From positions 37,448,001 to 37,512,000 of the forward strand of contig OZ024742.1 in the NCBI GenBank assembly GCA_964016885.1: a stretch of DNA of 64,000 nucleotides, read 5' to 3'. Positions within the stretch are counted from its first letter, which is position 1, and each line of letters begins with the position of its first letter. Both the position numbers and the translations under genes were made by a program. The notes beneath the pieces are model-generated. The model was not told the origin of the DNA, searched no databases, and saw nothing but the letters and a program-made list of their open reading frames with translations. The DNA is from Eledone cirrhosa (taxonomy: Eukaryota). Positions 7,781 to 64,000 of this stretch are shown here, in pieces.

Positions 7781-7811
<31 letters not shown>

Positions 7812-8786: not shown

Positions 8787-8817
<31 letters not shown>

Positions 8818-8962: not shown

Positions 8963-8994
<32 letters not shown>

Positions 8995-28376: not shown

Positions 28377-28438
28377 AATGTCTACACGCGTTTCAACTTC
28401 AATATTAGCATATAATACTAAAGCATCGTCAGGGCATT
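28377..28438 (-). ncRNA. type I hammerhead ribozyme (Penelope-type)
   Basis: - strand reads AAUGCC-CUGACGA-U-[12-bp stem II]-U-GAAA-CGCGU-GUA-GACAUU. An inverted, interrupted copy lies at 28477-28714. Confidence 0.72.
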
Positions 28439-38519: not shown

Positions 38520-38710
38520 GTGTTGACCCTGGGATATTTGAATGTCACCTACTTCAGTGTAGCTCCACTCATACAGAGTGCACTGTGCAGGCTTCCTTGA
38601 AAAGATTAACATCTGTCTTTGCAGTACTCATCAGGAAACTTATCCAGTACATGTTGGAGATCTCCTTCCGATGAGTTAAGTAGCACCATGTCGTCTGCAA
38701 ATTCCAGCCA
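38520..38710 (-). mobile_element. LINE RT fragment
   Basis: FADDMVLLNSSEGDLQHVLD...FKYP on the - strand. Confidence 0.6.
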
Positions 38711-40354: not shown

Positions 40355-40655
40355 AAAACATGTGATACCTGTGGCAATATATCAAATATATACATGCTGG
40401 AGCTGAACACCATTGTGATATCTATGCTAAAAAAAAAATGTCAGCAATTATCTTTCCACAAATGTATTCACACATGTAAAAAATCCATACTACGGTGATA
40501 TTTTCAGAAAAGAATTCTGACACTAGTATTTTAACTACACACAAATGAACCCATGACACAGATTACACATGTGAAAGACATGCAGACCATAAAAACTTTC
40601 AGTAAAGACTTCTCTCACTCAAGTATTTCAGTTAAGCACAAACGAATCCATGTTT
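40355..40655 (+). pseudogene. decayed C2H2 zinc-finger remnant
   Basis: CDTCG, HCDI, HKCIHT, FSHSSISVKHKRIH fragments broken by frameshifts and stops. Confidence 0.55.
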
Positions 40656-40905
40656 TAAATTGTATATATGAAAGACAAGTAGACAATAAGAGCTTCAGAG
40701 AAAACTGTCAGGATGTATGCAATTCGATATTAGTGGAACAAAATCAAAAGGGATATTTTGAACAAAGTGTAGGGAATTATACTTGAGCATTTTGATAACC
40801 AACAACATAATTTTGTACCCCCATATGAAGTTGAGGTTAGAGATCACCTTTGATAACTCAATTATGGTCATAGTGTGGCAGTTGGCATAATTGGTGAATT
40901 ACACT

Positions 40906-41086
40906 GACCTTTTCTCTAAGATCAAAGTGCAGTATCTATTCTTATCAGCTTAATATCTGATATGTTCCTAATATAGGAACTCTGATGTTAAACTGATTTT
41001 TCTTTACTGGTGAAGATGATGGAGGTTGCACCAGCTTTGCCACAGGTTGACCTGGTATTGCAGTACACCTAGGATTTAGCCCAACC
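40906..41086 (+). pseudogene. U2: U2 snRNA copy (retrocopy or SINE head)
   Basis: CTAAGATCAAAGTGCAGTATCTATTCTTATCAGCTTAATATCTGATA, Sm site GATTTTT, loop IV GGTATTGCAGTAC, end GCCCAACC. 5' ~10 nt diverged; branch-pairing GTAGTA mutated to GCAGTA. Confidence 0.9.
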
Positions 41087-42865: not shown

Positions 42866-43208
42866 TATCATCATCATTTCATTTTACGTCCGCCTTTTCT
42901 CTGCTTGCAAGGGTGGGACGGGAACTAATGCTGGCTTGATTTCTACAGCTGGATGCCCTTCCTAACACCAACCTCATTTACAGTGAGTGGTGGGTGCTTT
43001 TTTGCCATGGCACCTCCACGACCACTTCACAGTGGAATGATATGGACCCCAGTCCCTATCATCTCATTTCTACAGCTGAGTAAACTGGAGCAATGTGAAA
43101 TAAAGTGTCTTGCTCAAGGAAACAACACATCACCCGGTCTGAGAATTGAACTCACAACCTTTCGATTGCAAGGCCAATGCTCTAACCACTAAGCCATGTG
43201 CCTCCACA
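42866..43208 (-). mobile_element. full-length young tRNA-SINE
   Basis: Near-identical reverse complement of 4907-5243. Confidence 0.85.
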
Positions 43209-43369
43209 TATATGTCACCATATCTTTTCTTGACATAGCATATAAGTTTGAAGCCTGAACTATAAGATGATGTTACACCACTGTCACTGTAGAAGGTTGA
43301 TCTCAAACCAGTGTATTAGTTTACATGGATCTGAAAGATAAAATACAGATGAGTTAACAAAATGGTTAA

Positions 43370-43570
43370 TGTAAGTCAGAAGTAGTTGTGATCGTTTAGA
43401 TGGTATGGTAATAATAGTGAAGTATTACTGGGTGATGTAAGGTAGAGGTAGTTATGATTGTTTAGATAGTATGGTAACAGTTGTGATGTATTAGTGGATG
43501 ATGTAAGGCAGAAGTAGTAGTGATGGTTTAGATGTTATAGTAAGTTGTGATGTATTACTGGGTAATGTAA
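43370..43570 (+). repeat. degenerate ~60-70-bp minisatellite, ~3 copies
   Basis: Repeats of GTAGTTGTGAT..TTTAGAT...GTATTACTGGGTGATGTAAG. Confidence 0.6.
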
Positions 43571-44260
43571 AGATGAGGAATTGTGCATATATGTGTGCTT
43601 GTGTGTGCATGTATTTAAGAATGCATGTGTGATGTGATGTTCCTACCTTTATGTAAAACTCAGTCCAGAGAACAATTCGTGCCACCATCTCTGATATATA
43701 GGTAAGATTCATTTAGGATTTCCTTTGGTTTAATTATCCTGAGGGGGTTGGTATGTTGGTAGATACCTGATGTGGAACCTACATCTCTGAGAAAGATAGC
43801 CATTGTGGTAATTAGCCATTATTTCATAATAATGTCCATATACATGCACATATGTATGTGTGTGAGTGTGTATGTATGTACCTATATATGTGTAGATATA
43901 TGCATCAATACTGTATATTTGTTACGTACATCTGTTTCTTTGATGTGTCCAATAACGAGAAGGAGCGAGATGGAAGTTCTCAAAATGAAACATGTTGGAA
44001 ATATAATAAATATGTCTTTTCTGTTAACCTTTCTGTTACCATATTTCTAATTAAAGACAGCTTATGATTTTCAATTACCTTTAAAAAAATTTTTTTACGG
44101 AATTTAGTAATAAAACTACTTTCTCATTATTAAATTGATGTTTAGAACATAACAAGAATTCTTACATAAAATTATGATAGAAAGTTTTTAGATAAATATA
44201 AAGTTATGTATCAGAACCAGAATTGGTTTCAGGTTTGGTTTCTTCATCACCTAATATTAA

Positions 44261-44908
44261 TAGGTTGGATACAAAGTCCTGATGCATTTTAGACATAATG
44301 ACTTTGAAAACACTTTCTCAATACTAACAGCAATATAAACTATTCCTTTTTGTTCTAATATTGTTCTTGCTTTCTTTCAGCTTAATTTCATGTTATATTG
44401 CTTGATATTATGCAATTAGACCCCTCTAGAATGAGTGCTGATCAGACATATATAAGACATTGTATGAATACAAAAAAGGTTCCTCAGCACCAGATGTGGC
44501 AAGGAATATATGTTCTGTCTATAAAAATAAAGCTCCAACTGTCTAAACATGCCAATGACAGTTTAAACAATTTCAAACATGAGCTTTTAAAGAATGTGGT
44601 GGAAGAAAATCCTAAGCAAACTGCATGAGAATTGACAAAAGAGGTCAATGTATCAGATTATGATTTTTTCAGATCATTGCAACATTTTCTAAATGGGAAA
44701 CAGTTTACCAATCAAGAAGAGGCAAAAATGGACACTGAATCCTTCTTTGCTTTGCAACCAGAAGAAATTTATGCTAGAGGGATCAACAACTTGCAAGCCA
44801 GATGGGAGTATGTTATTAAAAATATCATCTTGATTGAAAATATCCATCATAACCAAATAAACATTTGTTTCCTTGTTCAAAACGAGATAATATTTTGTAT
44901 CCAACTTA
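44261..44908 (+). mobile_element. internally deleted mariner element
   Basis: TIR-like ends TAGGTTGGATACAAA / TTTGTATCCAACTTA; SDYDFFRSLQHFLNGKQF...YARGINNLQARWEYVI. Confidence 0.85.
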
Positions 44909-45397
44909 ATATTACACCTAATGGTGTGAAAAGACATAAAAAGTAATAGCAAGTTGATCTATCAGTTTGTTAATTGTTGAAGATAACAAATTTAGCGTTT
45001 TCCATGTTAACTCCTCTATTTCAATGACTATCATGTAGGTTCAACTCTTAAAATCTTTAAAAAGGCTTGTCCCAATATGTGCATATATACATATATTAGT
45101 TTAAGTCTGCCCCAAGCCCAGAGGCTCATCAGACTGGGGTTACCATAGTTTCAGTGACATGAATGGACTGAGAGACAAAGACTGCCCACTCCTCTTGATA
45201 GGATGGTTGTGTATTGCAGGGTTGATTCCCAGTTGACACTGTTGATACTCATTTTTTTTCTTAAGCTGGAGCAACAAGAAATCAAGTGTCTTACTCAAGG
45301 ACACATGTACCACTCTTGTCTGGGAATTGAGAACCCATGACCTTACAATTGTGAGCACACCCCCCCCCCCCCATCAGCAGAGGCTGCCGCTTGCCTT

Positions 45398-48312
45398 TGT
45401 AGTGACGCTACTTGCCTTTGGCGTATTTATAAGCTATTCATACGTGATTTGGCTAAGTCAGGCCAATTATAAGCCACGCACAGATATATATTCCAACTTC
45501 CGCCCAAACAAAGATTTTCCCGCTTCTTTCGTATATACTCTCTATTCTTGCTTGGACTTTAAAGGGAAAAGATACTATTATATAACAGTGAGATCTTCAC
45601 TTTGGCCTGTCAGCCTCCTTCGGCCAGACACAATGCCTTTCTTACTTCTAAACTCTTAATTTGTTTGTTCCTTTGTTTGACATGTCAACTCAACTTAACT
45701 CTCTATAATTTAGATGTAAACAAAAACATATAAAAATGTTATTCGAAGACTTACAACTATATCAACAAACATTCACTTTCTGCTAACATTTACCGTTACA
45801 ATTGTGGGGATGGTGTGGTGGTGTGGAGGAGGTGACCGGAAGCTGGGGACGCTTGACCGGAGGCAGAAGAGGAAGTGACGTGAGATGCGTATCCAGGAGT
45901 GTCTGTGGGTTCTCTTTCGGCTGTGACCCGCGACGGATGGACGTGCGAATGCGAGCTGCAACTTGGCGAATGGATTATACCCACAGGTGGCGAGGTCACG
46001 GATGTCTGCGGGGAAACCCTGCGTGAGTGGAGACGTATGACAGGGGCTTTCACAACCGTTGATTTAAAGTCAGCATATCTACAGCTACACGTGGAGGAGA
46101 AGCTGTGGCAGTATCAGCTGGTCAGGTATAAGGGCTGGGCATATTGCCTGACCAGGCTCGGCTTCGGGCTGAACTCTGCACCGAAGATCATGGCGGCGGT
46201 CCTCAAGACCATTCTGAGAAAGACCGACAAGATGAAGAGGGCTTACAATTCCTACATCGACGACATCCTAGTGGACGAGACTGTAGTGCCGGCGGCAAAG
46301 GTCACGAGCCATTTACAAAAGTACGGATTGACTGCGAAGCTGTCTGAGGCGTTGGAGGCAGGAGACGCGCTGAGACTTAGGCTGCAAAGAGACAAGACGG
46401 GCATGTTAGTATTTCGGAGGGGAAATGAAGTCCCGGAACAGGGCCCAAATATGAATAGACGGGAACTCTTCTCGGCATGTGGAAAATTGGTGGGTCACTA
46501 CCCAATTGCTGGGTGGCTCTGGACGGCATGCAGCTATGTCAAGAGACGAGCAGACGGGGTGACTTGGAGTGACAAAGTGGAAGAGAGGACAGTGGCCATG
46601 ATGCAGGAGATCATGGGGAGGGTGAAGGCCGACGACCCGGTGTGAGGACGCTGGTATGTCCCCGAATCACAGAGCGGGACCGTATGGTGTGATGCCAGCA
46701 GCATAGCGCTGGGTGTCACGCTGGAGATAGGAGGTGTCGAGGTCAAGGATGCAGCCTGGCTCAGGAAGAAGGATGATTTCAACCACATCAATGTGGCCAA
46801 GCTAGACACGGAGATGGGTGAACGTCGCCTTGAGGTGTGGACTGCGCACGATCGAGATTCGCACCGACTCGGCCACTGTACTCGGATGGGTGAGATCAGT
46901 GCTTACCAGTGAGAAGAGAGTGCGAACGAGAGGGGCAGTGGAAATGCTGATAAAGTGCCGCCTGGGAACTCTAGGAGAGCTGGCCACTGAGTTCGACCTG
47001 AAGTTGAGTGTGGTCTTCGTACCCTCAGAGAAAAATAGAGCAGACGTTCTAACCAGGATGAAGAAAGCCTGGATGGAAGCGCCGGAGGATGTAGAAGAGA
47101 GGATAGCTGCTGTGTGTCGGCTGAGCGAGTCGGAACTTAAAGGGTTGCATGACATGCACCACATGGTAGTGGATAGGACCCTGTTCCTAGCCAGGAGAAT
47201 CGACTCCGATGTTAGCAAACACAGTATCCAGAGAGTGGTCAGAGGCTGCGTCCGATATCAGTCTATCGATCTGCCCCAGGTGTGCACAAGGCGGTAAGTT
47301 TCCTGGTGGATCGCGACTGGAGGTGGACATAACACACTACCGACGGAACATACCTCTCGATGGTTGACTGTGGACCGGGACGGATGGCGATATGGAGGGA
47401 AATGAAGACAGGAATTGTGGAGGAAATCACACGGATATTGAGAGATATTCTTGGAGCGGGGCCCTGTGGATGAACTGCTGATGGACAACAGCGGAGCGTT
47501 TCGCTCGGAGACACTGAGGGAGATTCTTGATGGGTGGAAGGTGGACTGCTTCTTCAGAGCAGCATACAGGCCGAGCGGAAATGGAATCGTGGAGCGACAC
47601 CCCGCACAATCAAAGCAATGGCAGAGCGGGGGCACATCTCACCAATGGAGGCAGTGTTTTGGTACATGTCCCCTCAGGTGGGACAGTCTGAGGAATCGGT
47701 GCCACACAGAGCAATAGACAGATACGAGTGCCGGCACCCGTGCACTGTCCACAATGGCCAGTGGAGAGAGAGAACACAATCATACAGGTGGGCGAAGAAG
47801 TCTGGGTTAAGCCCCCAGACGCACGTTGCACATCTCAATGGGGAAAGGGAACGGTAATGGCCGTAAATTCCCAGAATAACGGGTCCGTGGACGGAGTGCC
47901 ACATCATACCCTGGATGTCCGTAGAATCGTTGTGTCGACAGACTCCGAGGAAGAGAAAATCCAAAACGCCGCCCCAACATTACGGATATCGCAACGAGAT
48001 CGCCGAACACCTGGCTGGGCGGCAGATTATCACATGCAGCAGTGTGAGGGGGAGATTGATCCTTGAGATCAGGGGGGCATGTGGGGATGGTGCGGAGGAG
48101 GTGACCGGAAGCTGGGGACGCTTGACCGGAGGCGGAAGAGGAAGTGATGCATACCCAGGAGCATCTATGGGTTCTCTTTCGTGTGAATGCGAGCTGCAAC
48201 TTGGCGAATGGATTATACCCGCGTGGATGAGGCATGGCTCGCTGAGTGAGCTAGCAGAATTGCGGTAAGTGCAGTAGCTTTCTCATTACAACAATAACAT
48301 TTTGCTGCTACA
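45398..48312 (+). mobile_element. solo LTR interrupted by a nested Gypsy element
   Basis: TGTAGTGAC start and GCTACA end; shares CTTTGGCCTGTC.GCCT...CACAATGCC with the 50581 LTR. Confidence 0.6.
45803..48290 (+). mobile_element. Ty3/Gypsy LTR retrotransposon, gag/protease deleted; RT-RNaseH-integrase pseudogene
   Basis: LTRs 45803-~45982 (truncated) and 48080-48290; PPT AGGGGGG; 5-bp TSD ACAAT; DLKSAYLQ, LGFGL.SAP, YIDD, WCDAS, TDSA, MDN..AF, NGIVERH. Confidence 0.93.
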
Positions 48313-48719
48313 CAAAACAATACATTTTCTTGCTAGTAAAACAAACTGCTATACCTTCACTTAGAGATCTTAGTCTTACCATAAGAAACAAAAAAACTTG
48401 TTCAATACAACTTGAAAATTTGTCAGCCACTGGCTTTTGTATTCTTTTTCTGGTTTCAATCATTAGACTACAGCCATGCTGGAGCACAGCAGTAAAGCAA
48501 TTTAGTCCTGTGTGAGCGAATCACAGTCCACCGACCTGATCTCTGACAAAGCGACGGCCTGCCCTACCCATGCTAGTGTGGAAGATGGACATTAGATGAT
48601 GATGATGATGATGACAACCAAAGTCATAAAAATCAAACGGAACTCAAATGTCAGCTTTCACACAACAAAGACTTTAGATCACAAGACAGTGGCATTCAAC
48701 AATCACAAGATGTAGTAAT

Positions 48720-49450
48720 GTGGAACCGAATGTAGGTCTGGCTCCAGGAAGGAGCTTAGCAATGGCAACAGGGGACATGATACCAGCGACAGGAGACATC
48801 AATCCAACTGTTAGCAAAAAATTCTTACGGACATTCATTCATTACATTAATGCTTTTGACATTCCTAAAGACATTGCAAAATACAAAATGTCACCAACTG
48901 ACGAAGAATACTTTGAACTAAAAATAAATCATAGAATGTCTAATATACCGTACACAGATTTAAAAGCTAGCATGACAGTAGCAAAACTAGAATCATACTT
49001 ACTACCATGTAACACTTTCAGAGAAAACAGCGTTAGTTATAAAATATCCAATATCATATCAATAACTGACAAACTAAGCCCACTACAAAATACTACAACA
49101 AACATGACATTCCATGGATAGCAACGCCAAGACCATGGATTGCAACTTACATAGACATGGAATACGTTTTATTTCCTAATTCAACATATAATGTAGCAAC
49201 AAACGACAATTTCAGACATAACATACCTAATGCACATGAAGAAGGAACATTAAAAAACTTAATGACATCATGTAAATATAGAAAAGACTTGTGGTTATGG
49301 CAGGGTTTTAAAATTCCTTTGACATCAGAACAGACAATAGATGCACAAGAACTAATAAGTTACATGGATACTGGTAATTGGAGACCATTATACGCAGGAG
49401 AAACATCAAGCTATACTTGGGTTAACAAAAATCCAAGTTGGTTTAATATG
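48720..49450 (+). pseudogene. endogenous parvovirus-like capsid (VP) fragment
   Basis: INHRMSNIPYTDLKASMT...KISNIISITDKL...TF~RPWIATYID...PLYAGETSSYTW follows the parvoviral capsid motif order as recalled for Hamaparvovirinae; frameshift at a short duplication near 49112-49147. Confidence 0.65.
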
Positions 49451-49479
49451 ATGTATTACACTGTGTTTCATACTTTTAG

Positions 49480-52400
49480 CAGCATTACTAATTTAAGGAA
49501 AAGAAGAAGTATTGAAGCAGAGAAGTATTGTTATGAGGATTATAGACATCTTAAAGGTGTTAAGCTAGCAAGCACTTCCTTTTCGATGTGACAGAAATAA
49601 ATTGGCCTACACTCTGGATAATGAGGTTCTGAATCGTGGCATTTTTTTTTTAGCTACAGTACAGTTGATGGCAAAATATGATACCATTATGGCAGCTCAG
49701 GTTTCTGCAGTGCAAAACAAGTCTGGACAAAGAATTCAAACAATTAGAACAAGGAGAGGCTCAAAGTAAAGACCGTGGTGAATTTGTTACATACCTGAGC
49801 AAAACAACTATTAATTCAAATTATGAAGAATATGATACAAGAAGGAATTGTCATTAAGTTTCTCAAGTAATATATTATTCTATTGCGGTTGATTCAACAC
49901 AAGATAATTCATCTGTCAATCAGTTTAGCATTGTTATACGGTATATGCTTAAAGGTGCTATCTGTGAGTGACTACTTTCAATTGTGCCAAGTAATGATGG
50001 TATAGGAGAGGGGCATTTTGATCTATTGACTGTTATTCTTAAAATTGACCCCAAAGAATGTTTACCTGATAGCACAGATGGGCAGTATAATGGTTTATAA
50101 AGTAAAATTGCTGAAGTGGCAGATCAACATGCTCATATATGGTGCTATGCCCATGTCTTGAATTTGGTGATAACTGAAACAAAATGTTGTGTACCTGCAG
50201 TTTCGTTTTTCAATTTGCTCCAGAATTTAGCAACTTTTGTGAAAGCACCATACAAGAGAAAGGCTGTATGGATAGAAGTTGTTGGAAAAAATCTAGGACA
50301 AGGAAAAAATGAAATTATTGATGCTAAATGGTGAGACCAGATGATCAGGAAAATCCAATATAGCAACAACTATATTTGGATGTTTTGATCATGCCACTGC
50401 CAGTACTTTTGACATGCTTATCAATGATACAAGATTCAGACAAGTTTGATGCAAATGTTTTACTTCAAAGTCTTCTAAAGTTTGAAACCATATTGATAGC
50501 ATTTACTTAATTGTAAATATTTGAAACTACAACCCTGTTATCAAGTTACCTATAGACAAGTGGTTTAAATATGTTTACTGTGTAGTGACCTACGTTCCTT
50601 GGGCTCATAGATACATTCTCCATGCGTTATTTGGCTCAGCTCTGCCAATCGCCGCCAGCGAAGGAGAATGTATCTCGACACGCCCTGCAGGAAAAATTCC
50701 CGCGTCAGCTCAGAAATCTCTCTCTCTTGCAGCTTGACCATGCTAAGGTAAAGACCATTTATTCTTTTGCTCCGTAAGCACAAACAATATGTAACGGTGA
50801 GATTTGAACTTTGGCCTGTCGGCCTTCCTTGGGCCTGGCACAATGCCACATTCCTTTTGTAACCGTTTTATGTTTAACTTCAACTATACTATTAAACAAA
50901 CATTACTTTGTGTTACAACAAATAAACATACATCTCATCTCTTATTTCTCTCGTTGTCGATATTACTATCATATCCTTCTGCTAAAATGGTTACTTGTGG
51001 CGCTATTACTATTATCTACTTCTATACTTCACCTGCTAAAAATGGTGACCCCAAATCTTACTGCTAAAATTGGTGACCCCTAACGGAGGAATATTTTACG
51101 TACCAAATATTCCTTTTAAAATAAAATAAAAATTGGCAGTATATATATAAAAAAAAAAAAAATTTCACCATGAGGAAATTAGTATCAAAATGGCTATCAC
51201 CTCTACCAACAACAGCAGCCGCCTACGACATCTTTGAAAGAAAAAAATTAGCTGTATTTTCAAAATTATAGCACGGAAACATTTTTCTTTCGATAAGGCT
51301 TCCTGCAATACCAACAAACAAGCCAACACCAAACTTACGTGGTGACTTACGGCTCTTCAACGATCGACTTCGCTTTGATAGCAACAACAACAACAACAAC
51401 AATTCTACTAGCTTCCCAAAGAAAAGAAAAGCGAACTTTTTGTTAAAAGAACAATTCTTTCTTCTTTTTTTACAGGCAATGTTTGGACATTTATTTCTTT
51501 TAAACTGTATTATATGAAAATTCATTTTTTTTCCTATCATTGTATATATGACTGCACGCACACATTTTCTTTGCTGTATTACATGCCTGCATATGCACAC
51601 TCATTTCTTTGTCACACACCAACATGTTGTTGTCTATGGTATATGATCTTCAAGCGTTGTAATATTATGCGAGATCCCTTTTCACCTGGTGAAGGTACCA
51701 AAACATGCTGTCAACACTTGCAGCTTAATTCATCTGCACCGCAACACGAGAATGCTAATTGCAGCTGGATTCAAACAGTTTCGCATCTCATTGTCCTATA
51801 GCATAACAACCTCCATCTTGTTACTTTACACGACTCACTGGGAAAACAACAAATGGAACTGGACCAGTCAGCATTTCCACCATTTCACCAACCGATTCGG
51901 CAGATTTATGGAATTACCGCTTCAACTACTACCCACCTACAGATTGAACTTGCTTTTTTTCTTTTCAAAGCAACTAGCAATATTTTTTCCTGGCTGCCTA
52001 GCACTTCCGGCAATTCATCTGGGAGGCCGACAATTTCTTGCCTACCCATCTTCTTCCCAGCTCTGCTACAACATTTACCATAACAGCTCTGGTATAACAC
52101 TTACCATAACAACTATACAGCTCTGGTAAAGCATGAACAACACTGACAACATCATTGACAACACCTACTGGTAAACTACCATAACAGCTTCATCCACAGC
52201 TCTGATACAACACTTATCATAACAGCCAACATTTAATGCAAGAACAGCAACTTTGCTCATGTCAGACTTTATCCGTTTTCTGTTAGACCCCTGGTGGTCA
52301 CGTATAAATAGCAAAACAGCTAGTCATTTGACACAGCGGCTCAACACGGCCCTTAGCGCCTCATTTTTCTTCTTGCATGCATTCTTTTGTTCAATTTTTT

Positions 52401-52885
52401 TTCATTCTCTAGCTGATTTTCGAGTAAATGTGTTTAACCTAATAATGGATCACATTGTCCAGTCACTAGAATCACACTTTGTACAACACAAACAGCTGTA
52501 TAAAGATTTATGCTACCTGGACCCAGCAAAGTCTAAACTATTGCAGAGAAGGGTCTTGAAGTTGAAGCATTAGATGGTATTATTAAGTTGTTTCCACAAA
52601 TCAGCAAAGATCAAGTAAAATTGGAATTGTTTTCTTTTGCTTTAAACTTTGATGTATTAAATTTTTGGTCAATGAAAGTGGGAATATGGGTTCCAGCAGC
52701 AACAACTATAAAATATGCAGCACTTGCCCATCACCTGTACTGAAAATTCTGGCATCCAACAAACTTCATTACAAGGCATATGATAACCTATCAGTTACCC
52801 AAATCCAATGTGAGAGGACATTTTCAAAGTTGAAGATCATAAAGACAAGGTTAAGAAATTTGTTGTCTCAGGGCTCAAGATAAAC
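49480..52885 (+). mobile_element. hAT (ZMYM1/P52rIPK-type) transposase pseudogene, split by an LTR insertion
   Basis: ALPFR, YSIAVDSTQD, IWCYAHVLNLV, ETR, CERTFSKLKIIKTRLR (hAT dimerisation domain). Confidence 0.85.
50581..52410 (+). mobile_element. LTR plus duplicated Trp-type PBS and internal remnant, inserted in hAT
   Basis: TGTAGTGACC start; TGGTGACCCC twice (~51043, ~51071); short tandem repeats at 52060-52230. 3' boundary approximate. Confidence 0.65.
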
Positions 52886-52889
52886 AGGA

Positions 52890-54110
52890 AAAAAATTAAG
52901 CTGATAACAATCAACACCACTGCCAACACATCAGTCAGTGGAGAGCCCGTCAGAGAGGTCGAGTCTTTTGTCTAACTGGGAAGTGTGGTTGATGTCACAG
53001 CCAGGATTGGCAAGGCAAGAGCAGCTTTCATCATGCTAAAGAACATTAGGGCATCAAAAGAAATCTGCCCAAGAACCAAACTTAACATCTTCAACTTCAA
53101 CGTGAAGGCGGTACTGCTGTACGGATGTGAAACTTGGAGGACAACAAAAAAGATGCAGCAGAAGACATTCTTCAACATCTGTCTGAAGTGCATCTACAAC
53201 ATCAAATGGCCGGAGAAGATCAGAAACGAAGATCTGTGGGAACGAGCGGCAAAGCAGATTCTGCGAAAGAAGTGGAGCTGAATTGAACATATCCTCAAGA
53301 AACCAGCATCCAGCACCACACGTCAAGCCCGGACCTGGAATGCACAGGGTAAGAGGAAGAGAGGCCAGCCCCGTGGCAGCTGTGTAGCAAAATCTGTCCA
53401 CGCCTTGAACCCTGGCTGACACAGAAAGGTCAAATTCCGGGTCACCTCCTTTTCGGCGTAAACAAGTTCATGCGTGGGCGATCCCTCGAGGCGGGAAACA
53501 GAAAAAGACAGTTATAAATAGCCTGCACCAAACCAAAGAACACAGCGAGATCGGAGCAGTACGTGAGAGAATAGCTATGTAAAACATTCACCTCCGGGGT
53601 CTACAGACTGCTACAGACCTTTACTCTCTCTCTCCTGGTCTCAGACTACACCAGCATCATGAAGCAACAACAAAAACATCTTCAACTGTTATAACTCTTA
53701 ATAACCTATTCTTTGTTCATTTATGAAGTGAAGTGAAGTAAACCTTTTATATCAAAAGTAAACCAGCACATGAACTGCGGTAAGATAAACACCTATCCTT
53801 CTTTCGCTCCGGAAACATCATTCCAATATGTAACTACAAAACATTACCGCGGCCTGGCTTCTCAATTCAGCCACTGGACCGTGTCTTCTCTACAGATCTT
53901 AATTTGTTTGTTCATTTATTTTGGCATGCCAACCAACCAATACAGCTCTTCTCACCTTAAACATTGTTAATAAATTCTGTTACAATGAACTACAAATTGT
54001 TGTCAACATTATTTTATCTTACTTCTAATGATAACTAGTAACAACCTTCGCTTCAGCTGGAGGTGTGACACTGAGGCTGAATTAAGAAAACTGGAAGCCA
54101 ACTGCAGCTA
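52890..54110 (+). mobile_element. RTE LINE 3' fragment interrupted by a solo LTR
   Basis: ARIGKARAAF, VKAVLLYGCETW, WPEKIRNEDLW, GKRKRGQP; resumes after 54059. Confidence 0.85.
53383..54055 (+). mobile_element. complete solo LTR with 4-bp TSD
   Basis: TGTAGC...GCTTCA flanked by GCTG (53379-53382, 54056-54059); TATAAATA and AATAAA inside. Confidence 0.85.
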
Positions 54111-54149
54111 ACCCAGAAGTAAAAGGGTTAAAACATCCATGCAAGCTTC

Positions 54150-54820
54150 TTATAAGGAAAAGTTTTCAACAATCAAACAACTGTAGAAAGTGCGCAAAAC
54201 TAATCCACAATATTTATAGATTAGGAGATCTAATTTTTCAGAAAACCAGGAATGATGGCTACAAATTTATCAAGATATTAGAGCTCTTATGTAACAAAAG
54301 ACTAGTTGAAATGGCAAGGGAGGCTTGATCAGCGATCCCTCCCTTCACTAGATTTGGCGGCCACAGCATTGAAGAAGCCTTATTTTGGAGCCAAGAGAAC
54401 TCAGTCTCACCAGAAGTAGAGAACTTTTTAGTATTAATAGAAGCATTAACCCATCACAAGGATGTTGTTTATGTGTCCAGTTGGGGACATCCATTCATAG
54501 ATTATTTTGAAACATTAAAGAAACAACACGATTTAGTCACAATGGCGTTGCCAATAGGGCAAGGAAAATTTCTCGGTGACACGAACTTAGTCAGTTGAAG
54601 ATGACACAACCTAGCTCATGGCATTTGAAGCAAAGGTTTACATGGATGAAGTGGAGGATAACCTACAATATGGTGGCCAAAGTCCTATGGCTATAAAATT
54701 CATTTCTTTGGTTGGATTACAAGCATTAAAGATTATAGATATTAATACCCCGAGGAAACCTTATATGCCCAGAGACAAAAAGATGGTCCAGATCTTCTTG
54801 TCTCTCTAACAATCAAATAT
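54150..54820 (+). pseudogene. endogenous rhabdovirus L (RdRp) fragment
   Basis: NIYRLGD...[29 protein letters not shown] at 54482-54505; GKFLG; RGNLICPETKRWSRSSCLSNNQI at 54751-54819. Collinear with recalled vesiculovirus/lyssavirus L motifs. Confidence 0.88.
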
Positions 54821-54852
54821 TTTCTCTCACAAATCTACTATTTCACTGTGTT

Positions 54853-55172
54853 GAAATAGAAATTTGTAATTTACTGTTCCTTGTTCACATAATTTAAGGA
54901 AATAAACAAGACACCACCACAGTGTTCTAAAAATATCAACAATGTAGCAGCATATGTCGTAATCAAAGCCATAACTATCAAAAGAACTGTCAGTCATGTA
55001 CTAATGCCACCAACAAATAAAACTAAATATGAAGACAACCAAAGTCATAAAAATCAAAAGGAACTCGACTGTCAGCTTTCGGACAAAGAAGACTTTAAAT
55101 CACAACAAAATGGCATTCAGCAATCATCTATCCACTGCATCGAAATAGAAATTTGTAATTTACTGTTCCTTG
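54853..55172 (+). repeat. 31-bp direct repeats (54853-54883, 55142-55172) flanking a second copy of the sequence upstream of the VP EVE
   Basis: GAAATAGAAATTTGTAATTTACTGTTCCTTG twice; 55034-55126 matches 48613-48705 at 81/93 nt. Confidence 0.85.
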
Positions 55173-55834
55173 CCTCCAAAACTTAAGAGTTCCGTGTTAC
55201 AAATGAGTAGATTGTGGTGGTTTTTATTTCAATCAATATAGTTTATTCTGAACTGAGTTATTCAATAATTTGTGAACAACCTGATAGTTGTATTTTTTAA
55301 ACATAAATTATCTTGCACCATTATGAAAATTTTCATCAAAATGTCTGCTATAAATTAAATAGGTACACCATATCCCTTTCTGTCACAAGAGGGGAGCAGG
55401 AAAGTCATTTGATATGTGTGTACTTGGTTTAGAATAGGTATGCCATATCTCTGCATGTCATAAGAGGTGACTAAAATATATGCCTAAAAAAAATTTACCC
55501 CTGTTGTGTAGCCTCATAAGGCTAACCCCTGCTTTAGCAGGAAAAATAACCTCGCTGTTCTTGTAATTTAACTTATACCAGTGATACAATGACTGACTTT
55601 GTGTCAGTAATATTCTAGAACATTCTTTGAGAATGGCTACTTTATCTTATCACAAACGTATTGTAACAGGAAAGGAATCATATTACTGTGATATCAGTAG
55701 TAAAACATACTTTCTTCTGAAGGTGACTTAACCCCTCTGTGATCATACTCCTAATGAAATACTCTACCTGTGTTTTTGAAATAATAAAAAAATGTGGAAG
55801 GATTCAGTAAAATAAATAACTATGTATATCTGAT

Positions 55835-55950
55835 TTAGAATAGGTACACTGTATCCCTGTGTGTACCCAGTTTAGAATAGGTACACTGCACCTCTGTGTG
55901 TATCCAGTTTAGAATAAGTACGCTGTATCCATGCATGTCTTAAATGACTA
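55835..55950 (+). repeat. ~36-bp tandem repeat, 3 copies, of TTTAGAATAGGTAC motif
   Basis: Dispersed copies also at ~55357 and ~55428. Confidence 0.75.
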
Positions 55951-57582
55951 AAAAGGTTGACAACAGGAAATATATTCAGCTGTAAAACATTGTCTCAAAA
56001 AGGACCCCATGAGTTAATTAAGCCTGTCACAGATTTTGCAAGGCTAAGGCATAAGTTGGAACAAAGACATAAGTTGGTGAAACAAAGACATAAGTTGGTG
56101 TCAATGCATAATCTTAACTCTTGTATTTAAACATAATTCTATCATTGAAAGCTGTCCTTTTGACACATTTCACATGGATTATAAGATTCACTATTACAAC
56201 TAACTTCACTATTCCCTGACTAATACTACTATTTTTAATATAACCTTGCTTTAATGAAGTAAATTGGAAATTGGCAACAAACCACGTGTAGACATAATGA
56301 ATAAAAATAAATCACTACATCGCATGTGAATCACTATAGGGATCATTGTAAGTACATCCCAAATTCTCTAAACAAATACATACACAGATTTATATGTAGA
56401 TACACACCACACATCATCATCATGCATATATATATATACATACACAAAGTGAAAAGAAAACCTATTTCGTGTGTGAGACATTATAGGAACCATCATATGA
56501 ACATTGCACTGCATACATTCTGGATATAGACTTCATTTCTAGCTTACAAACATCTCTTAAATATATATATATGTGTGTGCAGATCTCTTTGTATACACAC
56601 ACATACAATACTTAGGAAAACGGAAACAAATATATTTTATTTATCTCCTTAACAAATGTGTTATACTTACGCATATCTGTTTGTTTACCTCTTGTTCTAT
56701 TGTACTTATGGACAGACAGAACCAAATTGCTATGGCGACATTCATGGGTGAAGTGTGTGACAAAACTGGTCACTGTTCCAAAATAGAACATTGCCTGGAA
56801 AATCATGTCTGTCATCTATGCACAGAACTTGAGAACTCTTTTAGAAATCAATGGGTTGAATGTGGTAAAATGTTATGTTTCTGTCTGCCTTCATGTGCTA
56901 CAAACTTTCCAAAGATCCCAGGTCAAAAAAGGGGACACCATATTTTTATGGACTCTGGGAAGTGGTTCAGCTACCAAATTGATCATTTCAGTACCTGGCC
57001 TGCGTGTCTTCTTCTACCATTGCTGTTGAACAACAAAAACTGACGATCATGTTTTCCCTTACCATTGCTGTTGAAGAACATGAACAACCAAAATCAAATA
57101 TCGATACGTAAGTTGTGGAAATTTGACAACTGATTTCTCATCTAAGCCTAGAAATAGCGGGAATTAAAACAAAGAGTCGTATAGAACCTCACATTGAGGG
57201 ATCTTTACGGAGTGCCTTGCTTAGAAATCTGCCGGTAGTTCTTGCTGAATCTAGATGTATCAAGAAAGCTACTGAATTTGTCACCCATGAAGTAATTGCC
57301 ATTGGTGTATCAGACATAACTGATCTTCAGGCATTTTCTGGCAACTTCTCCATGAACCTAGACTCTGTTCCTCCAAATTGGTAGACCAGGTCCCAAACCC
57401 AGACCAATTAGGCTGTCATTCGCAAGCTCTACTGTGGCACATGTACACCATTTAGCCTCTGATAAAACTGGGTATGAAAATCGAAATACCTTTCAAACTC
57501 ATTCTGGCTTACCACCTGATATATGCCCAAAGCTGTAGCTTCCTTACAGCACAACTAAGCATCACATGAAAGTTTTAACCTA

Positions 57583-58161
57583 CATGACAATGGGCAGACA
57601 GGGAAATTTATTAAGTTTGGTGAGACATGGAAAAGGGATACCAGCTGGTCTGAGCATAATGTACCCACAATAGCTGATAATGAAAAAGCTGTGGGAAACT
57701 TGTAGCGGTTGTCTCCCTTGTTTTGATTGGGATCTAGACGGGAAGTAGAACCCTTTCTGCAACTTCCGGTCAGAGCCCTATAAAACTAACAACTTTAAGC
57801 TTTCTAACTCTCTTTGCCTTTTCGGCACCAGGTCAAGAGCCTCTCTTTTGGCTCTGCCATTAATTTGGCCAACAGGCGCCTGGCCTTAGCCAGGCGTCCT
57901 CTGCCAGCCGCGTTTGCCTGGCAATCAAAACGGTAACTACTAACTTTGTTTCATTCTAACATCATCCTCATCTTTGACATGTCAACTATACTATCTACCA
58001 TTGTTAATTAAATATTATACACACAAACAATGTATTCCTTGTTCATGACAATGGGCAGACAGGGAAATTTATTAAGTTTGGTGAGACATGGAAAAGGGAT
58101 ACCAGCTGGTCTGAGCATAATGTACCCACAATAGCTGATAATGAAAAAGCTGTGGGAAACT
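57583..58161 (+). repeat. 118-bp perfect direct repeat (57583-57700, 58044-58161) flanking an LTR-like insert (57701-58043)
   Basis: The two copies read as identical; the insert starts TGTAGC and has a TATAAAA and GGCC-rich LTR core. Confidence 0.88.
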
Positions 58162-60189
58162 AAACAAGAACAACCTGTCATCTCCAATGTCAACACTTCT
58201 ATCATACTTGAAGTTGTTTACTGATTTCCTTGATTTAGTGCTGGATTTGAACTGGTTCCAAGTAGTCACCTCCCCCAACTTTGAATCTACTCTTTACCAC
58301 TACTCATGAAACAGTCATCACTGTCACAACTGAGGAACCTTTAAGATCATGCTATGATCATTACAAATCTGTTTTTTATGGGCAGTAACAAAAACTACAA
58401 CCATCTCCAAACTGCTCGCTTTTACTGGAATTCTTACTGCACTGAGTTACAACGCCCAAACTGGCTTGAATTTTGCAAGTCTGGAGATGAGAATACTATA
58501 CTTCAGAATATCCTTAATTCAATATGGTCAGCATGTGTAGCATCAGTAACATGTAAGTACAAAAATCACCCCAAAAGTGCAATTTGGGAGACTGCAGCAG
58601 TCTGACTTGCCAGGAAAGAACGTTGTGATGTTGAACAGGAAGATAGACTACATAGATCAGAGGTTAATAGAAAAAAGTGCAACAGATCATCTAACCATCT
58701 CAAGTATGTGGCTAAAAAGTGCTTGAATTTGAATAACATATAGTAACCAACCCTGACAGCAGGTGTTCTAGAAATATGTACGTTCTTTCCAATAGAGTTC
58801 TGTTTGCATTATCTTACACTGTCAAATCGGTCACCATAGACGCTGACCTATGTGGCCTCATAGATCAGTTCACATTCTGAATGGGTTTTGAGTGCCAATA
58901 TTTCTGAGTCACCTACTACTTCTCAAGTCTTGGAGACAAATAGCTGGTTCTTGGCCAAGCCGGTAGAGTTGCAGAGTATTCTGAGAGTCAACATGAGGTC
59001 AGTCCATGGATTTTACTCTCTCTCTCAATCAAGCCAGCAATGTGCTTTACATCAACAGAAGTTTTGGTAAATACCTCAGTAACTCAACCATTCTTACAAC
59101 ATGTGAGTTATGTTAACACATTTACAAACAAGAGAAAAGAAAAGAAAACACGGAAAAATTAATTCAAAAACAAAAAAAAGATCTATTGCCTTGTTTCTTC
59201 AAAATGTTTTGGGTGAAGATTCTCAACAAATATTTGTTAACACGAGTTAGTTTTTGAAGCCCCAAGGTCGAGCAGCGATTCGGTAATCTTGGAAAAGTTA
59301 AACCTATATAAGTGGATATAATTAAGACTAAGGATCAGACCCAATTAAGTTGTTCATGATATAGATCATCTTGCCCGTGTTCAAATATGAAACCACAGAA
59401 ACATCACTATTGTAGCCCTGTTGAATTTACTGTGGATTCACCCATGTGGAATCTTACAGGAACACACATTGCTCACTTGTCTTTTTTCTCCCCTTTTCAA
59501 AAATAGGAGGTGGGGGAGGGGAAATTATCTCACGGCTTCTCTGCTTCCGAAGCTTTTTCCATCTCTATGCATGCTCATTGCTCTTTTTCTTCCACTGTAT
59601 TTGCCTGCTCTTCACAAGATAACACTTATCTCCACAATTCACCCCCCCCCCCCTCATTTTTTCTCTCCCTTCTTTCCCCCCTTTTCCTCTTTCTATTCTT
59701 TCTTCTGCATACGCCTACCTTCGTTCTCGCACATAGCCCATCTATGTCTCCGCTCAACCCTTAGTGGCCCGATGTTCTGATCAAACTATCAATAGTAATT
59801 GCTGATTAATAAAGTTGTCATCGCTTTAACCCAATCCACTTTAGGTGGTGGAGGCATGCGTCAAGCAACCAAGAGACCTGCATGGTGGACATTTGTGACA
59901 ACAGGCTAGTCTTCGGCCTCTCATTCTCCACCAACTTTGACACACACATGAGAAGCTAACTTGTCTCCTCCTATCTCCATCGTTAAATCCGAACAGAACT
60001 AACCCTGCTAACCCCACCAATTCTACAACTGTTAGCCTACCCCAAGCACTACCTATCCTCTGTTCTAGTCCCACTGATAGAGCCAATGCTGTTTACCCTG
60101 CTTCTATTACCATTTCAGTCCCACACCTGAATTCCAATGCTGGCCCTTTACCGTTGGTCGCTACCAGCTCATCACCTGATTGTACTCTC

Positions 60190-60560
60190 TGTGCCCGCAC
60201 TAGCCAGTACCTAAAGACAAACAAATGTCACCTTTGTTGCCAAAGCTACCACAGGAGCTGCGTTGGCATCACCAGGGCTCAAGCCAAAAGACTTCAATAC
60301 TGAACCTGTAACCAGTGTCACTTTAGCTCCGACGTATTCCGTGGAGATGTTCTGCGCTTCAACGACCAACTCTTTACCGAGGACTTTGCTGCAGCCCTCC
60401 AGGGTTTAGCCAAATCAAAGCTCATCAACCCAATCCATAAGGGTGTTTGAAATAGCTTTGCACGTGCCCTTGCCAATCTGTTGGACAATACATCTGATTG
60501 GCAGAAACTGTTTGTTCCCTCTTCACATACACAAAATGCAAAATCTGGCTCCCTCATGTC
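60190..60560 (+). mobile_element. non-LTR retrotransposon N-terminal fragment with PHD finger (CRE-like)
   Basis: CHLC..SYHRSCVGITRAQA..L..*TC..C, followed by IHKGV..SFARAL..LL...DW.KLF. Confidence 0.5.
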
Positions 60561-61948
60561 TTCTCTCAAGCAAGTTCCAGCTGTTTGAGTCGACATTCCA
60601 ACCACTTCTCACCTCAGTTTGAAATCGAGCTTGGTGCCTACCAACAGCCAACCAATAAACCTGTAGTAAGCAATAACACTACCTTATCACGGCGGAATAA
60701 TCAGGTCGTGCTTGGTCAGTCGCCAGGCCCTTAAGTCGGCAGCGTAGGAATACCATTCAGTAACTTCCGCCCAGCAAGGGAATTCGCATCTCTTTTGACT
60801 TCTACCTACCAGTTGTGTTCCAGGATTCATCCTGAGTGGACTCGCGTAACTACGTTCTGGATTTTCTTAGAAGAAGCACATTTTTTCATTCAACTTACTT
60901 ATGCGGCATGACAGCAGCTTTTTACTCTTTACGGAGAAAAATAAACCTTTGTTATATTTCCTCGCTGTGCTTTCTGGTCTGATCCTTCCACATGGACTAA
61001 AAAAACAAAAACACGTAGCCTTATAACCTAATCGTCTTTAAGGATCCTTTCCGGAACCAACAAGCTACTCAACCAAATATCTCATTGCTAATAACCTCAA
61101 GTATGCTGTTAATGCCAAAGTCAGCCAATTTGACATTAAAAGGGCTCTCCGTTTCCTCTCTTCTGTGTCCTCTCTCGTCCCATGTAACTCTGCTTCTCTT
61201 GAGTGACTGGAAGAGAAGCACTCATCAGCACCCGCCATATAATCAGTTACACTTTAACGAAGAGTATTATAGGAAATTGTTAAATGGATTAATACGGTTA
61301 TTAGATGAAATAACAATAATAATAAGAATAAATGATTTGGTTTATATATGGTTTACTTCAAGTGAATCAATTAAAAAGTACAATAAAACAGTTACCAAGA
61401 GTTGAGAAGGTTGACAATGTTTTTGTTGTTGATGTGAAACCAGCGAACGACCAGCTAAATTTGCCCCCTAACCGCTCTGCATCCGGGATGTGGGAAGAAG
61501 CAAAAAAAAGTCACTAACTGTGACGCCCCAGATAAGACACGTGCCTCTAAACCAGTGGCACAGGGTAAGACCGTCAATTCTTTTCCCATCAAATCTGGAC
61601 AACCCAGACGGTTCCAAAACTGAGGGGATGTTTGCCCGGGGCAAAGCTCTCTTTGCTATTGCTACTTAAAAACATGTGCTGCCTCTGCTATTCGTTTTTC
61701 CACTAATTGTTTGTCGGAAATTGATAAAAAGAAATTACGTAATGGAGTTGTGAAACAAAAACTATACTCTTAAAATGCATAGGGTATTTCAAATGTTTTT
61801 CCTTTTCAGTATTACTTTATTTTGTCCACTCCACCTCCTCAGAACCCTCCATTGTGAGGCGCGGTTTAACTAAAAGACGAATAATTTCCAACGGTTTTAA
61901 AAGTCAGATTCATTGAAAACACGCAAAAACCTAGGGGAAAAAAAATCT

Positions 61949-63825
61949 GGCAATATCCAATTTTACCGCCCGATTTGCTGCTGATGCTGTAGTTGCTGCT
62001 TACTGCTTGTTGCTAGCTGCTGCTACTGCTGACTTGCTGCTATTGTTGCTTAACTTGTGCTACTTACCTGCTTCACTGTATGAGGCTATTCCAACAAATT
62101 TACATTCTCTTTTTTTTAGCCGTTAAAAGAAATATAGATTTATTTATTTGCAACGTTTTTGTTTTTTTTTGCCAATGGGGCATAGATTTCTTTATTTGCC
62201 ACGTTTTTGTTTGTTTGTTTGTTTTTTTTTGCCAATTCGTGGAAAATACCCAAAGATTATTTATGAATTTCAGTTTAAAATCAATTATAAGATAATCACC
62301 GACAGAGGGCTAATATAAGTGAGAAAGTGATACTTATAATTTTGGGGTATATTGGCATAACTAGCTCCCTGCCGGTCATTTCAATGCAGATATTATTAAA
62401 GGTGAAATAACATAGTTCTGTTATCTTATAATTGATTTTAAACTGAAATTCATTCGTTCGAAAACATTCATTGAACACTGTACCACCAACCAGATTGCTG
62501 TTATAAATTACAACCCTGATTTGGAATTGCTGAATAAAGAAAATGCCTGGACGTCCACCTGCACCAATTTTCATTGTTGAAAATGTTAATTCATCACAGC
62601 AGACGTTAAATATGGATTTGAAAATGACGGAACTGGTGATTTTAACTGCAAACAAACTCAGTATTATTGAATTTATGGCTCGGAACCGATTAGTTTCAAA
62701 CACTATGAACTGTCCTTCATGTAATATTTCCTGTTCGTTTGTAAGTTACAAAGACAATCGACCAATTTCGATGGAAATGTAAGGTATGCAGTTTTACCAA
62801 ATCTGTCCGTTCTGGGTCATTTTTTTTTCGAAGCCACTTAGATTTACATCAAATGATTTATATGATTTACTTCTGGTCAATTGGGTCCGAAAATATTCTT
62901 ATTGCTGACGAGATTCGGTGTAGTGAAAACACCATTACTGACTGGTGCAACTTTTTACGGGATGTGTGCAGTGAATGGGTGGAGCGAAACCCATCAATAC
63001 TCGGTGGAATGGATGATGCCGGAGTCCCAATAGTTGTACAAATCGATGAAAGTAAATACTTTCATCGAAAGTACGCTCGTGGGACCTGGCATGAAGGCCA
63101 TTGGGTCATTGGTGGGATCGATACCAATAATCCCAGAAAAATGTTTATTGAAGAAGTCCCAGACCACACTGCTGAGACCTTGCTACTCATTATTGAAAAC
63201 CATGTGCTGAGTACATACGGACCAATGGCGTGCGTACAATCGCATACGACATATGCCTGGTAATTCACTAAATTTTGTCGATCCGGTATCAGGAACGCAT
63301 ACCCAGCACATTGAAGGACTCTGGTCTCATGCAAAAAAAAAAAAAAAAAAAAAAAAATGGCACTAGCCGACCCATGTTTCAGTCATATTTGAATGAATTC
63401 ATGTGGCGGTGGAGAAATGACAGCTTTATGAGTGGAGGCGGTAGATGTTTCCCAAAGATTTTAAACTGTATATCGGAATAATATATTGTTTAAAGAAATA
63501 TTTTTTTCTTTTTTATTGTTGCGATATACAGTTTAAAATTTGCTTCCAAAAGTTCAAAAAGATATAAATCTTTAAAAAAATTATAATAATTCTTTATTAT
63601 TATTTTCTTTTTCTGTAAATAATGCCCCAGTGGCAAATAAATCGCAAAAAAAACCAAGAAATTAACAAAAACGTTGCAAATAAATCTATATTTCTTTTAA
63701 CGGCTAAAAAAAAGGGAATGTAAATTTGTTGAAATAGCCTCATACAGTGAAGCAGGTAAGTAGCACAAGTTAAGCAACAAGTCACCAAGTAAGCAGCAAT
63801 TCGAGCGGTAAAATTGGATATCGCC
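61949..63825 (+). mobile_element. full-length Merlin (IS1595/ISXO2-like) DNA transposon, frameshifted transposase
   Basis: TIRs GGC(A/G)ATATCCAATTTTACCGC with ~200-bp imperfect subterminal IRs; 8-bp TSD AAAAATCT; VQIDESK, WVIGG, TDQWRAY, HTQHIEGLW, YLNEFMWR. Confidence 0.93.
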
Positions 63826-64000
63826 AAAAATCTTTTTTAACCGAATCATAGCGGGTGTTTTTCTATAAGCTCCACAGGAAATTAGCAATCTCCGTACATA
63901 ATGCCACAACTCAAACCGACATTATTATCAAACAATTTAATTTTACATTCATTAATTATCAATTAGTCATATTTTTTTTTTTACTAATAAAACATTCGAA

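What the first reader, a model, noticed from the sequence alone, without database searches (positions are those of the whole stretch)
44261..63825. Strand-biased graveyard of transposons and viral fragments: candidate piRNA cluster / antiviral memory locus
Seen: over ~20 kb with no host gene, mariner, Gypsy, four LTRs, hAT, RTE, a CRE-like LINE, Merlin, and parvoviral and rhabdoviral fragments are all on the + strand. One SINE at ~45.15-45.35 kb is the exception I noticed, whereas 0-40 kb has mixed orientations. Known: uni-strand piRNA clusters (Drosophila flamenco; EVE-rich Aedes clusters) show co-oriented, nested, fragmentary TE and non-retroviral EVE content. Inference: a - strand precursor would give antisense piRNAs against an RNA virus, an ssDNA virus and many TE classes. 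I am not aware of this being described in cephalopods.
Basis: partly seen in the sequence, partly recalled or inferred. Interest (0 to 1): 0.88.

Follow-up and report, generated by a model that had tools for sequence, protein, structure and literature searches.

The report
One-way transposon and virus-fragment trap
About 35,000 bases of a probably octopus genome are packed with broken jumping genes and pieces of two kinds of virus that nearly all point the same way, the layout of a locus that likely makes silencing small RNAs from the opposite strand, although those RNAs are untested here.

Summary
The block is real. In 44261-63825, 16 of 19 orientable elements (96% of annotated bases) lie on +: mariner, hAT, Merlin, Gypsy, five LTRs, RTE, a SINE tail, CR1, CRE, a rhabdovirus L piece and two parvovirus capsid pieces. 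There are three minus exceptions, not one. The bias runs on to about 79 kb (25 of 30). Flanks and 30 background blocks are about 50:50. Orientation alone is modest evidence after allowing for searching (scan p 0.25; 0.02 extended), but DNA transposons, Gypsy and viral pieces are enriched (6 of 15 vs 7 of 224). Three more such blocks occur in this genome (42/49, 12/13, 13/14 co-oriented); one is probably a locus this scan reported before (e1-8667547). Best reading: a uni-strand piRNA cluster read from the minus strand (0.6), a layout already shown in a slug. Piwi loading and strand are untested. No upstream minus-strand gene was found. The antiviral claim is weaker: seven other parvoviral sites show no bias (7 vs 5).

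The parts
44256..44917 (+). mariner, internally deleted, both terminal repeats present
   Evidence: copies 75-83% identical, transposase on same strand; ends read from sequence
45100..45351 (-). old tRNA-type SINE (exception 1)
45370..45802 (+). LTR piece (LTR-c), related to the family at 50581 and in the same orientation
45803..48290 (+). Gypsy remnant (RT, RNase H, integrase pieces; gag deleted), short LTRs, 5-bp target duplication
48503..48614 (+). 3' tail of an RTE-type SINE/LINE with (GAT)n end
48619..49474 (+). parvovirus (densovirus-like) capsid fragment, truncated and frameshifted
   Evidence: its genomic relative's best solved match is a shrimp metallodensovirus capsid, E 5e-8
49474..50578 (+). 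hAT transposase fragment
50581..52406 (+). non-autonomous LTR element (LTR-a): 5' LTR, primer site, internal part; 3' LTR missing
   Evidence: copies continue into purine tract and 3' LTR
52407..52839 (+). probable hAT C-terminal piece (weak; counted with the hAT above)
   Evidence: E 0.002-0.006
52840..53380 (+). RTE LINE 3' fragment
53381..54050 (+). solo LTR (LTR-d)
54086..54840 (+). rhabdovirus L-polymerase fragment (mRNA sense on +), one stop and an internal deletion; no close DNA copy listed elsewhere
54920..55132 (+). second parvovirus capsid piece (N-terminal region), sharing about 100 nt at 87% with the first
55619..55711 (+). decayed C2H2 zinc-finger gene remnant (host-derived; not counted)
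56125..58785 (+). CR1-type LINE 5' part (ORF1 and start of endonuclease), split by LTR-b
57701..58043 (+). young solo LTR (LTR-b), 97-98% to genomic copies, 3'-clipped, flanked by a perfect 118-bp duplication
59077..61253 (+). CRE-like LINE, split by LTR-e
60663..61092 (+). solo LTR (LTR-e); orientation inferred only from its TGTAG-type start
61252..61463 (-). 3' half of an LTR of the LTR-d family (exception 2)
61467..61653 (-). CRE 3' fragment (exception 3)
61949..63825 (+). Merlin DNA transposon, terminal repeats and 8-bp target duplication
44256..64000 (-). inferred minus-strand precursor region; the block continues about 15 kb past the window's right end (SINE, CR1, RTE, Sola-like, LTRs, a full-length Gypsy on +; two short minus pieces), and the candidate start lies 15-24 kb past it
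   Evidence: transcription inferred, untested

Best explanation
This is a 35-kb pile of transposon and virus fragments co-oriented on the plus strand, and it is likely a uni-strand piRNA cluster whose precursor would be read from the minus strand. Shown: separate elements of eight superfamilies and two virus families, some nested in others and some with their own target duplications, 68-98% alike to genomic relatives; 25 of 30 lie on one strand. Inferred: a long minus-strand RNA starts right of the block, most plausibly by divergent firing of the promoter of the zinc-finger gene at 89 kb, or from the LTRs of the minus Gypsy at 79-84.5 kb. Inferred: it is cut into 1U piRNAs antisense to transposon mRNAs and to rhabdovirus L and parvovirus capsid mRNAs. 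Cut-and-paste elements insert in either direction (established knowledge), so the bias is inferred to come from selection keeping antisense insertions. The viral pieces are inferred to be captured like any other insertion; an antiviral effect is possible but not indicated by more than their presence.
For: Orientation 16/19 (p 0.0044) and 25/30 (p 3e-4; non-SINE 22/25); 96-97% of bases. Automatic annotation gives +12/-1 non-SINE in the finding, against 27/33 and 23/24 in the 244-kb and 185-kb flanks. Background: 110 of 225 elements on +, 35 same vs 39 different among neighbouring non-SINE pairs, 0 of 30 blocks with p<0.05. DNA transposon, LTR-coding and viral pieces: 6 of 15 elements vs 7 of 224 in background, odds ratio 21, p 3e-5, and no viral hit in 600 kb of background. 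Microsatellites 45 vs median 722 bp per 10 kb. Three other blocks with parvoviral pieces: 42/49, 12/13, 13/14 after collapsing tandem copies; 36/41, 10/11, 11/12 without the classes used to pick them. An FKBP-domain exon lies on the opposite strand just upstream of one of them. Four Piwi-domain loci are in the genome (Ago and Piwi not separated). Slug clusters are mostly uni-strand, with an example of minus-strand piRNAs over plus-strand transposon fragments (PMC11615739). Orientation scans predicted real clusters in Drosophila (PMC10643416).
Against: No piRNA, transcript or strand data. With boundaries chosen after looking, a 16/19 run arises in 25% and a 25/30 run in 2% of random strand assignments over the 240 elements of the 464-kb region, and the scan read over a thousand windows of this genome. 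No minus-strand host gene was found upstream: the nearest ZNF genes (33142, 89162, 104550, 114894) are on +, and none of 55 further minus ORFs at 86-130 kb hit Pfam, so the read-through layout is missing. Seven other parvoviral sites gave 7 same vs 5 opposite; three other Mononegavirales sites are not clearly biased (6/5, 4/4, 1/7 with SINEs 8/2). SINEs in the block are not biased (3+, 2-). The minus Gypsy is young (LTRs 98% alike) and so is a poor candidate for the original promoter. Background blocks hold few elements each, so their power is low.
Confidence: 0.6

Rival explanations
1. The block is an intron or the body of a minus-strand gene or long non-coding RNA; sense insertions were purged because they disturb transcription, and no piRNAs are made.
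For: Antisense bias of LTRs, LINEs and DNA transposons in introns is reported for fly, chicken and fish (PMC2911107 passages). AATAAA is rarer on the minus strand of the block (23 vs 44). Three of the older elements tested at 44-61 kb lost more CpG than their relatives (122 vs 59, 91 vs 23, 12 vs 0; pairs not independent; CR1 goes the other way, 71 vs 98), as transcribed, methylated DNA would.
Against: No minus-strand host exon was found on either side by Pfam (short or unknown exons would be missed). It does not explain the 20-fold excess of rare classes, two virus families, or low microsatellite content. The other blocks do not share the AATAAA pattern uniformly.
Confidence: 0.18
2. A neutral insertion sink in a dead part of a zinc-finger cluster; the orientation is a chance run noticed after the fact.
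For: Scan p 0.25 for 16/19 and 0.019 for 25/30; flank runs reach 14 of 19; dead ZNF copies at 40.3-40.8 and 55.6 kb; viral insertions elsewhere sit in unbiased DNA.
Against: The same rare composition goes with strong bias at three other loci (p 8e-7, 0.012, 0.006 without the seed classes) and a fourth 10-kb sample picked afterwards, so composition and bias are linked in this genome.
Confidence: 0.12
3. A former uni-strand cluster that lost, or was moved away from, its driving gene and is now silent.
For: No co-directional upstream gene, unlike the C25 block behind an FKBP-domain exon; a young opposite-strand Gypsy at the presumed 5' end.
Against: Young plus insertions are present too (LTR-b 97-98% to copies; Gypsy at 70.9-76.6 kb with LTRs 98% alike), which suggests the bias was still building recently.
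Confidence: 0.08

Closest known systems
Uni-strand piRNA clusters of the slug Arion vulgaris (PMC11615739, section 9 read) and Deroceras laeve (PMC12506671, passages)
   Same: Mollusc; densely packed transposon fragments on one strand, with piRNAs from the other in the Arion example.
   Different: There the piRNAs were sequenced; here none. Viral fragments are not mentioned in the parts read.
Drosophila flamenco and flam-like clusters (PMC10643416, 12 passages)
   Same: Transposon pile with strong strand bias, found by an orientation scan.
   Different: There the bias is driven by Gypsy elements and was scanned in 100-kb windows; here LINEs, DNA transposons and viral pieces share the bias over about 35 kb.
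Aedes core piRNA clusters that trap non-retroviral viral elements (bioRxiv 10.1101/2022.08.22.504762, 12 passages)
   Same: Rhabdoviral fragment co-oriented with its neighbours, antisense to the presumed precursor.
   Different: Aedes clusters are read through from an upstream gene on the precursor strand, which was not found here; 53% of Ae. aegypti elements lie in clusters, whereas here most other viral sites sampled were unbiased; a DNA virus is also present.
piC-DoG read-through clusters of mammals (PMC11615739, abstract and outline)
   Same: Antisense transposon pile beside a host gene; fits the C25 sister block behind an FKBP-domain exon.
   Different: At this locus the flanking genes lie on the same strand as the transposons, so read-through from them would give sense RNA.

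Membership tests
uni-strand piRNA cluster | dense, fragmentary, nested transposon content | tested here: met
   17457 of 19565 bases annotated; nesting of LTRs in CR1 and CRE
uni-strand piRNA cluster | transposons on one strand above background | tested here: met
   25/30 vs 110/225; scan-corrected p 0.02 for the extended block, 0.25 for the 20-kb interval alone
uni-strand piRNA cluster | long single-strand precursor antisense to the elements | not testable with these tools
   no stranded RNA data reached
uni-strand piRNA cluster | 26-31-nt 1U piRNAs, phasing, Piwi loading | not testable with these tools
   no small-RNA data reached
uni-strand piRNA cluster | Piwi-family genes in the host | tested here: inconclusive
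   four multi-exon PF02171 loci; Ago and Piwi clades not separated; O. bimaculoides PIWI sequences are used in PMC6128900
flamenco-like cluster (strict) | bias driven by Gypsy LTR elements | tested here: not met
   LINEs, DNA transposons and viral pieces are biased as well
read-through cluster (Aedes core, piC-DoG) | host gene upstream on the precursor strand | tested here: not met
   nearest ZNF genes on +; no Pfam hit among minus ORFs at 86-128 kb other than LINE pieces; nearest minus ZNF ends at 128 kb; short or unknown exons could be missed
EVE-trapping antiviral cluster (Aedes type) | non-retroviral viral fragments co-oriented in the cluster | tested here: met
   rhabdoviral L and two parvoviral capsid pieces on +
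EVE-trapping antiviral cluster (Aedes type) | most viral insertions of the genome lie in such clusters | tested here: inconclusive
   this block and 4 other biased samples hold viral pieces (the 4 picked after seeing co-oriented hits) against 7 parvoviral and 3 Mononegavirales sites without clear bias; 10-kb samples are small
EVE-trapping antiviral cluster (Aedes type) | EVE piRNAs limit a cognate virus | not testable with these tools
   no cognate virus or small-RNA data

The most novel reading that the evidence does not exclude
Cephalopods keep several uni-strand piRNA loci that trap all transposon classes plus RNA-virus and DNA-virus fragments, giving a heritable antiviral small-RNA memory outside arthropods; this one is driven backwards from a zinc-finger gene promoter inside a ZNF cluster and also makes RNA antisense to dead ZNF copies.
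Probability: 0.2. Interest if true: 0.8.

Novelty: new member of a known kind. Interest (0 to 1): 0.55.

Why it matters
If confirmed, it gives coordinates for piRNA source loci in a cephalopod, a group with large, transposon-rich genomes for which six literature searches listed no cluster description. The single-copy rhabdoviral piece maps uniquely, so one small-RNA library could test whether virus-derived piRNAs exist in a mollusc, a question so far answered mainly in mosquitoes.

Tried and rejected
No RNA holder listed for 48300-58200; this is no evidence on expression. Four runs of unrecorded kind (one study, at most two samples) were laid on 28001-48000 as contigs: they cover the stretch and bridge 44.2-45.4 kb, but show neither strand nor level, and may be the assembly's source. 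Coverage of the rest of the block by those runs was not obtained. A prediction that every divergent parvoviral insertion sits in a co-oriented block failed: 7 same vs 5 opposite over seven 10-kb samples. The SINE excess on the opposite strand in the C12 block (27 vs 4) is mostly one 1-kb tandem array and was collapsed. Site-specific insertion at the U2 copy (40907) was rejected as the cause because cut-and-paste elements with their own target duplications share the bias. A single large duplication was not supported: no long alignment between this block and the others appeared in the visible part, and element ages differ. CpG decay as a marker of transcription was mixed. A protein search with the window's capsid piece found nothing; its identity rests on genomic relatives. 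The left end of the C12 block and the surroundings of the young parvoviral sites were not examined.
Full report
Setting. The window is G000:C3:37448001-37512000 in a 3.0-Gb genome. I fetched 200 kb on each side. The region is a C2H2-ZNF cluster: ZNF ORFs on + at 33142, 89162, 104550 and 114894 and on - from 128 kb (coordinates above 64000 extend the window's numbering).

Observation. Of 117 plus-strand ORFs of 45 aa or more in 44-64 kb, 6 hit Pfam (RVT_1/DUF7047, DUF6451, Mononeg_RNA_pol, DDE_Tnp_IS1595, a weak PHD in the CRE piece, and one unrelated weak DUF); 0 of 91 minus ORFs did. Because the pieces are decayed, I oriented each one through copies elsewhere in the genome and a protein library built from in-genome ORFs, most of the seeds Pfam-confirmed and some labelled from recalled motifs. 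Plus: mariner, LTR-c, Gypsy, a SINE tail, parvoviral capsid, hAT (two pieces, counted once), LTR-a, RTE, LTR-d, rhabdoviral L, a second capsid piece, CR1, LTR-b, CRE, LTR-e, Merlin (16). Minus: a SINE (45100), an LTR half (61252) and a CRE piece (61467) (3). LTR-a and LTR-b were oriented by primer site or purine tract in copies, LTR-c and LTR-d by likeness to these families, LTR-e only by its start. Merlin has an 8-bp and the Gypsy a 5-bp target duplication, so these are true single insertions.

Viral pieces. The L fragment matches PF00946 at 40 bits; among solved structures VSV L is best (E 5e-14), then a second L at 2e-5, others above 0.09. It has one stop and a deletion, and the DNA search listed no copy. 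The capsid piece is 68-69% identical to genomic elements with a PLA2-bearing VP ORF facing a Parvo_NS1 ORF; that VP is nearest a shrimp metallodensovirus capsid (E 5e-8). Both are mRNA-sense on +, so minus-strand RNA would be antisense to viral mRNAs (inference).

Extent. Plus elements continue to 79.0 kb: 9 more on +, 2 short ones on -. A minus Gypsy with LTRs 98% alike sits at 79016-84532 inside a plus RTE that ends near 86.3 kb. CpG observed/expected drops from 1.23 to 0.13 between 87.2 and 87.8 kb, which I read as the start of the ZNF gene at 89162 (inference from gene-body methylation in molluscs, recalled).

Is it more than chance? Manual counts: 16/19, p 0.0044; 25/30, p 3e-4; 96.3% and 97.1% of bases. 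Automatic counts: +12/-1 non-SINE in the finding (protein library without self; LTR references came from this locus), 27/33 left and 23/24 right. Thirty 20-kb background blocks at round coordinates gave 110 of 225 on + and no block at p<0.05, but each holds at most 8 non-SINE elements. Allowing a sliding search over the 240 elements of the region, p rises to 0.25 and 0.019. So orientation alone does not carry the case. Composition is separate evidence: 6 of 15 elements belong to DNA-transposon, LTR-coding or viral classes against 7 of 224 in background (p 3e-5), with few microsatellites (45 vs 722 bp per 10 kb) and fewer SINEs (1.15 vs 2.03).

Sister loci. Capsid and Merlin hits fell together on one strand at C12:9.0 Mb, C25:0.59 Mb and C25:7.92 Mb. 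Fetched and with tandem copies collapsed, they gave 42/49, 12/13 and 13/14 on one strand, and 36/41, 10/11 and 11/12 without the two classes that led me there; the boundaries were set after looking. An FKBP-domain exon lies on the opposite strand at C25:556969, so the C25:0.59 block is probably the array reported earlier by this scan (e1-8667547). A fourth sample picked afterwards, C2:345.39 Mb, has hAT, Merlin, LTR, capsid, Tc3 and mariner on +, with one short minus Merlin hit. Against generalising: seven other capsid sites, all those left among the divergent hits, gave 7 vs 5, and three other Mononegavirales sites were not clearly biased.

Mechanism. Shown: independent insertions, one strand, unusual mix, recurrence. 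Inferred: selection for antisense orientation in a minus-strand precursor processed to piRNAs. The genome has four Piwi-domain loci. The driver is open. Divergent transcription from the ZNF promoter near 87.4 kb is my preferred guess; the Gypsy LTRs are second.

Comparison. Slug clusters are mostly uni-strand and one example has minus-strand piRNAs over plus-strand transposon fragments (PMC11615739: abstract, outline and section 9). Deroceras clusters are described with a unidirectional example (PMC12506671, passages). Snail and oyster clusters are enriched for Gypsy and other transposons (PMC6128900, passages). O. bimaculoides piRNA expression was measured in arm tips (PMC12479628, passages and section 22). 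flam-like clusters are Gypsy-driven (PMC10643416, passages). Aedes core clusters trap viral elements antisense and are read through from genes (10.1101/2022.08.22.504762, passages). Intronic antisense bias is the main rival (PMC2911107, passages). Six searches (listings only) showed no paper on cephalopod piRNA clusters or their viral content; the library lacks most subscription journals, and no supplements were opened, so octopus piRNA loci listed with PMC12479628 may bear on this.

Verdict. Observation confirmed with corrections; a good candidate for a known kind of locus in a new animal group; function untested; antiviral role speculative. Interest 0.55.

Noticed in passing
window 24122-25555 (-): Intact 478-aa K/E/D-rich ORF without Pfam hit; one unnamed relative (39% identity, 466 aa); Atlas hits weak. 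Possibly viral or Polinton-like (guess).
   Followed up: partly
window 57583-58161: A young, 3'-clipped solo LTR is flanked by a perfect 118-bp duplication of the CR1 it interrupts, unlike normal integration.
   Followed up: partly
window 54844-55172: The second capsid piece lies between two 40-bp direct repeats (92.5% alike), as a retroposed insert might.
   Followed up: no
window 40907-41089 (+) and 40290-40760 (+): Decayed U2 snRNA copy (116.6 bits) next to a decayed C2H2-ZNF remnant.
   Followed up: partly
window 7449-9076: Long degenerate trinucleotide array reading as Pro/Thr-rich on - and Gly/Val-rich on +.
   Followed up: no
G000 C14:8.50 Mb, C10:49.49 Mb, C5:102.83 Mb, C998 (L002-L008): Near-identical parvovirus-like elements at several places, some as inverted pairs, with PLA2-VP and convergent NS1 ORFs.
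   Followed up: partly
G000:C3:130.160-130.165 Mb (L051-L054): A long, broken rhabdovirus L insertion (nearest VSV L) beside an opposite-strand Gypsy, in DNA without strand bias.
   Followed up: partly
G000:C12:9.023-9.050 Mb and C25:0.598-0.630 Mb: Tandem amplification inside the sister blocks: a 1-kb Penelope+SINE unit about 24 times, and a 10.4-kb Helitron/piggyBac/Penelope/LTR unit about 3 times.
   Followed up: partly
L174:888-3563 (G000:C25:7.896-7.899 Mb, +): 892-aa ORF without Pfam hit about 12 kb upstream of the C25:7.91 block and opposite to its elements: a possible read-through driver.
   Followed up: no
L017-L022 (128-183 kb in extended window numbering): Four near-identical minus-strand ZNF ORFs in tandem.
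   Followed up: no
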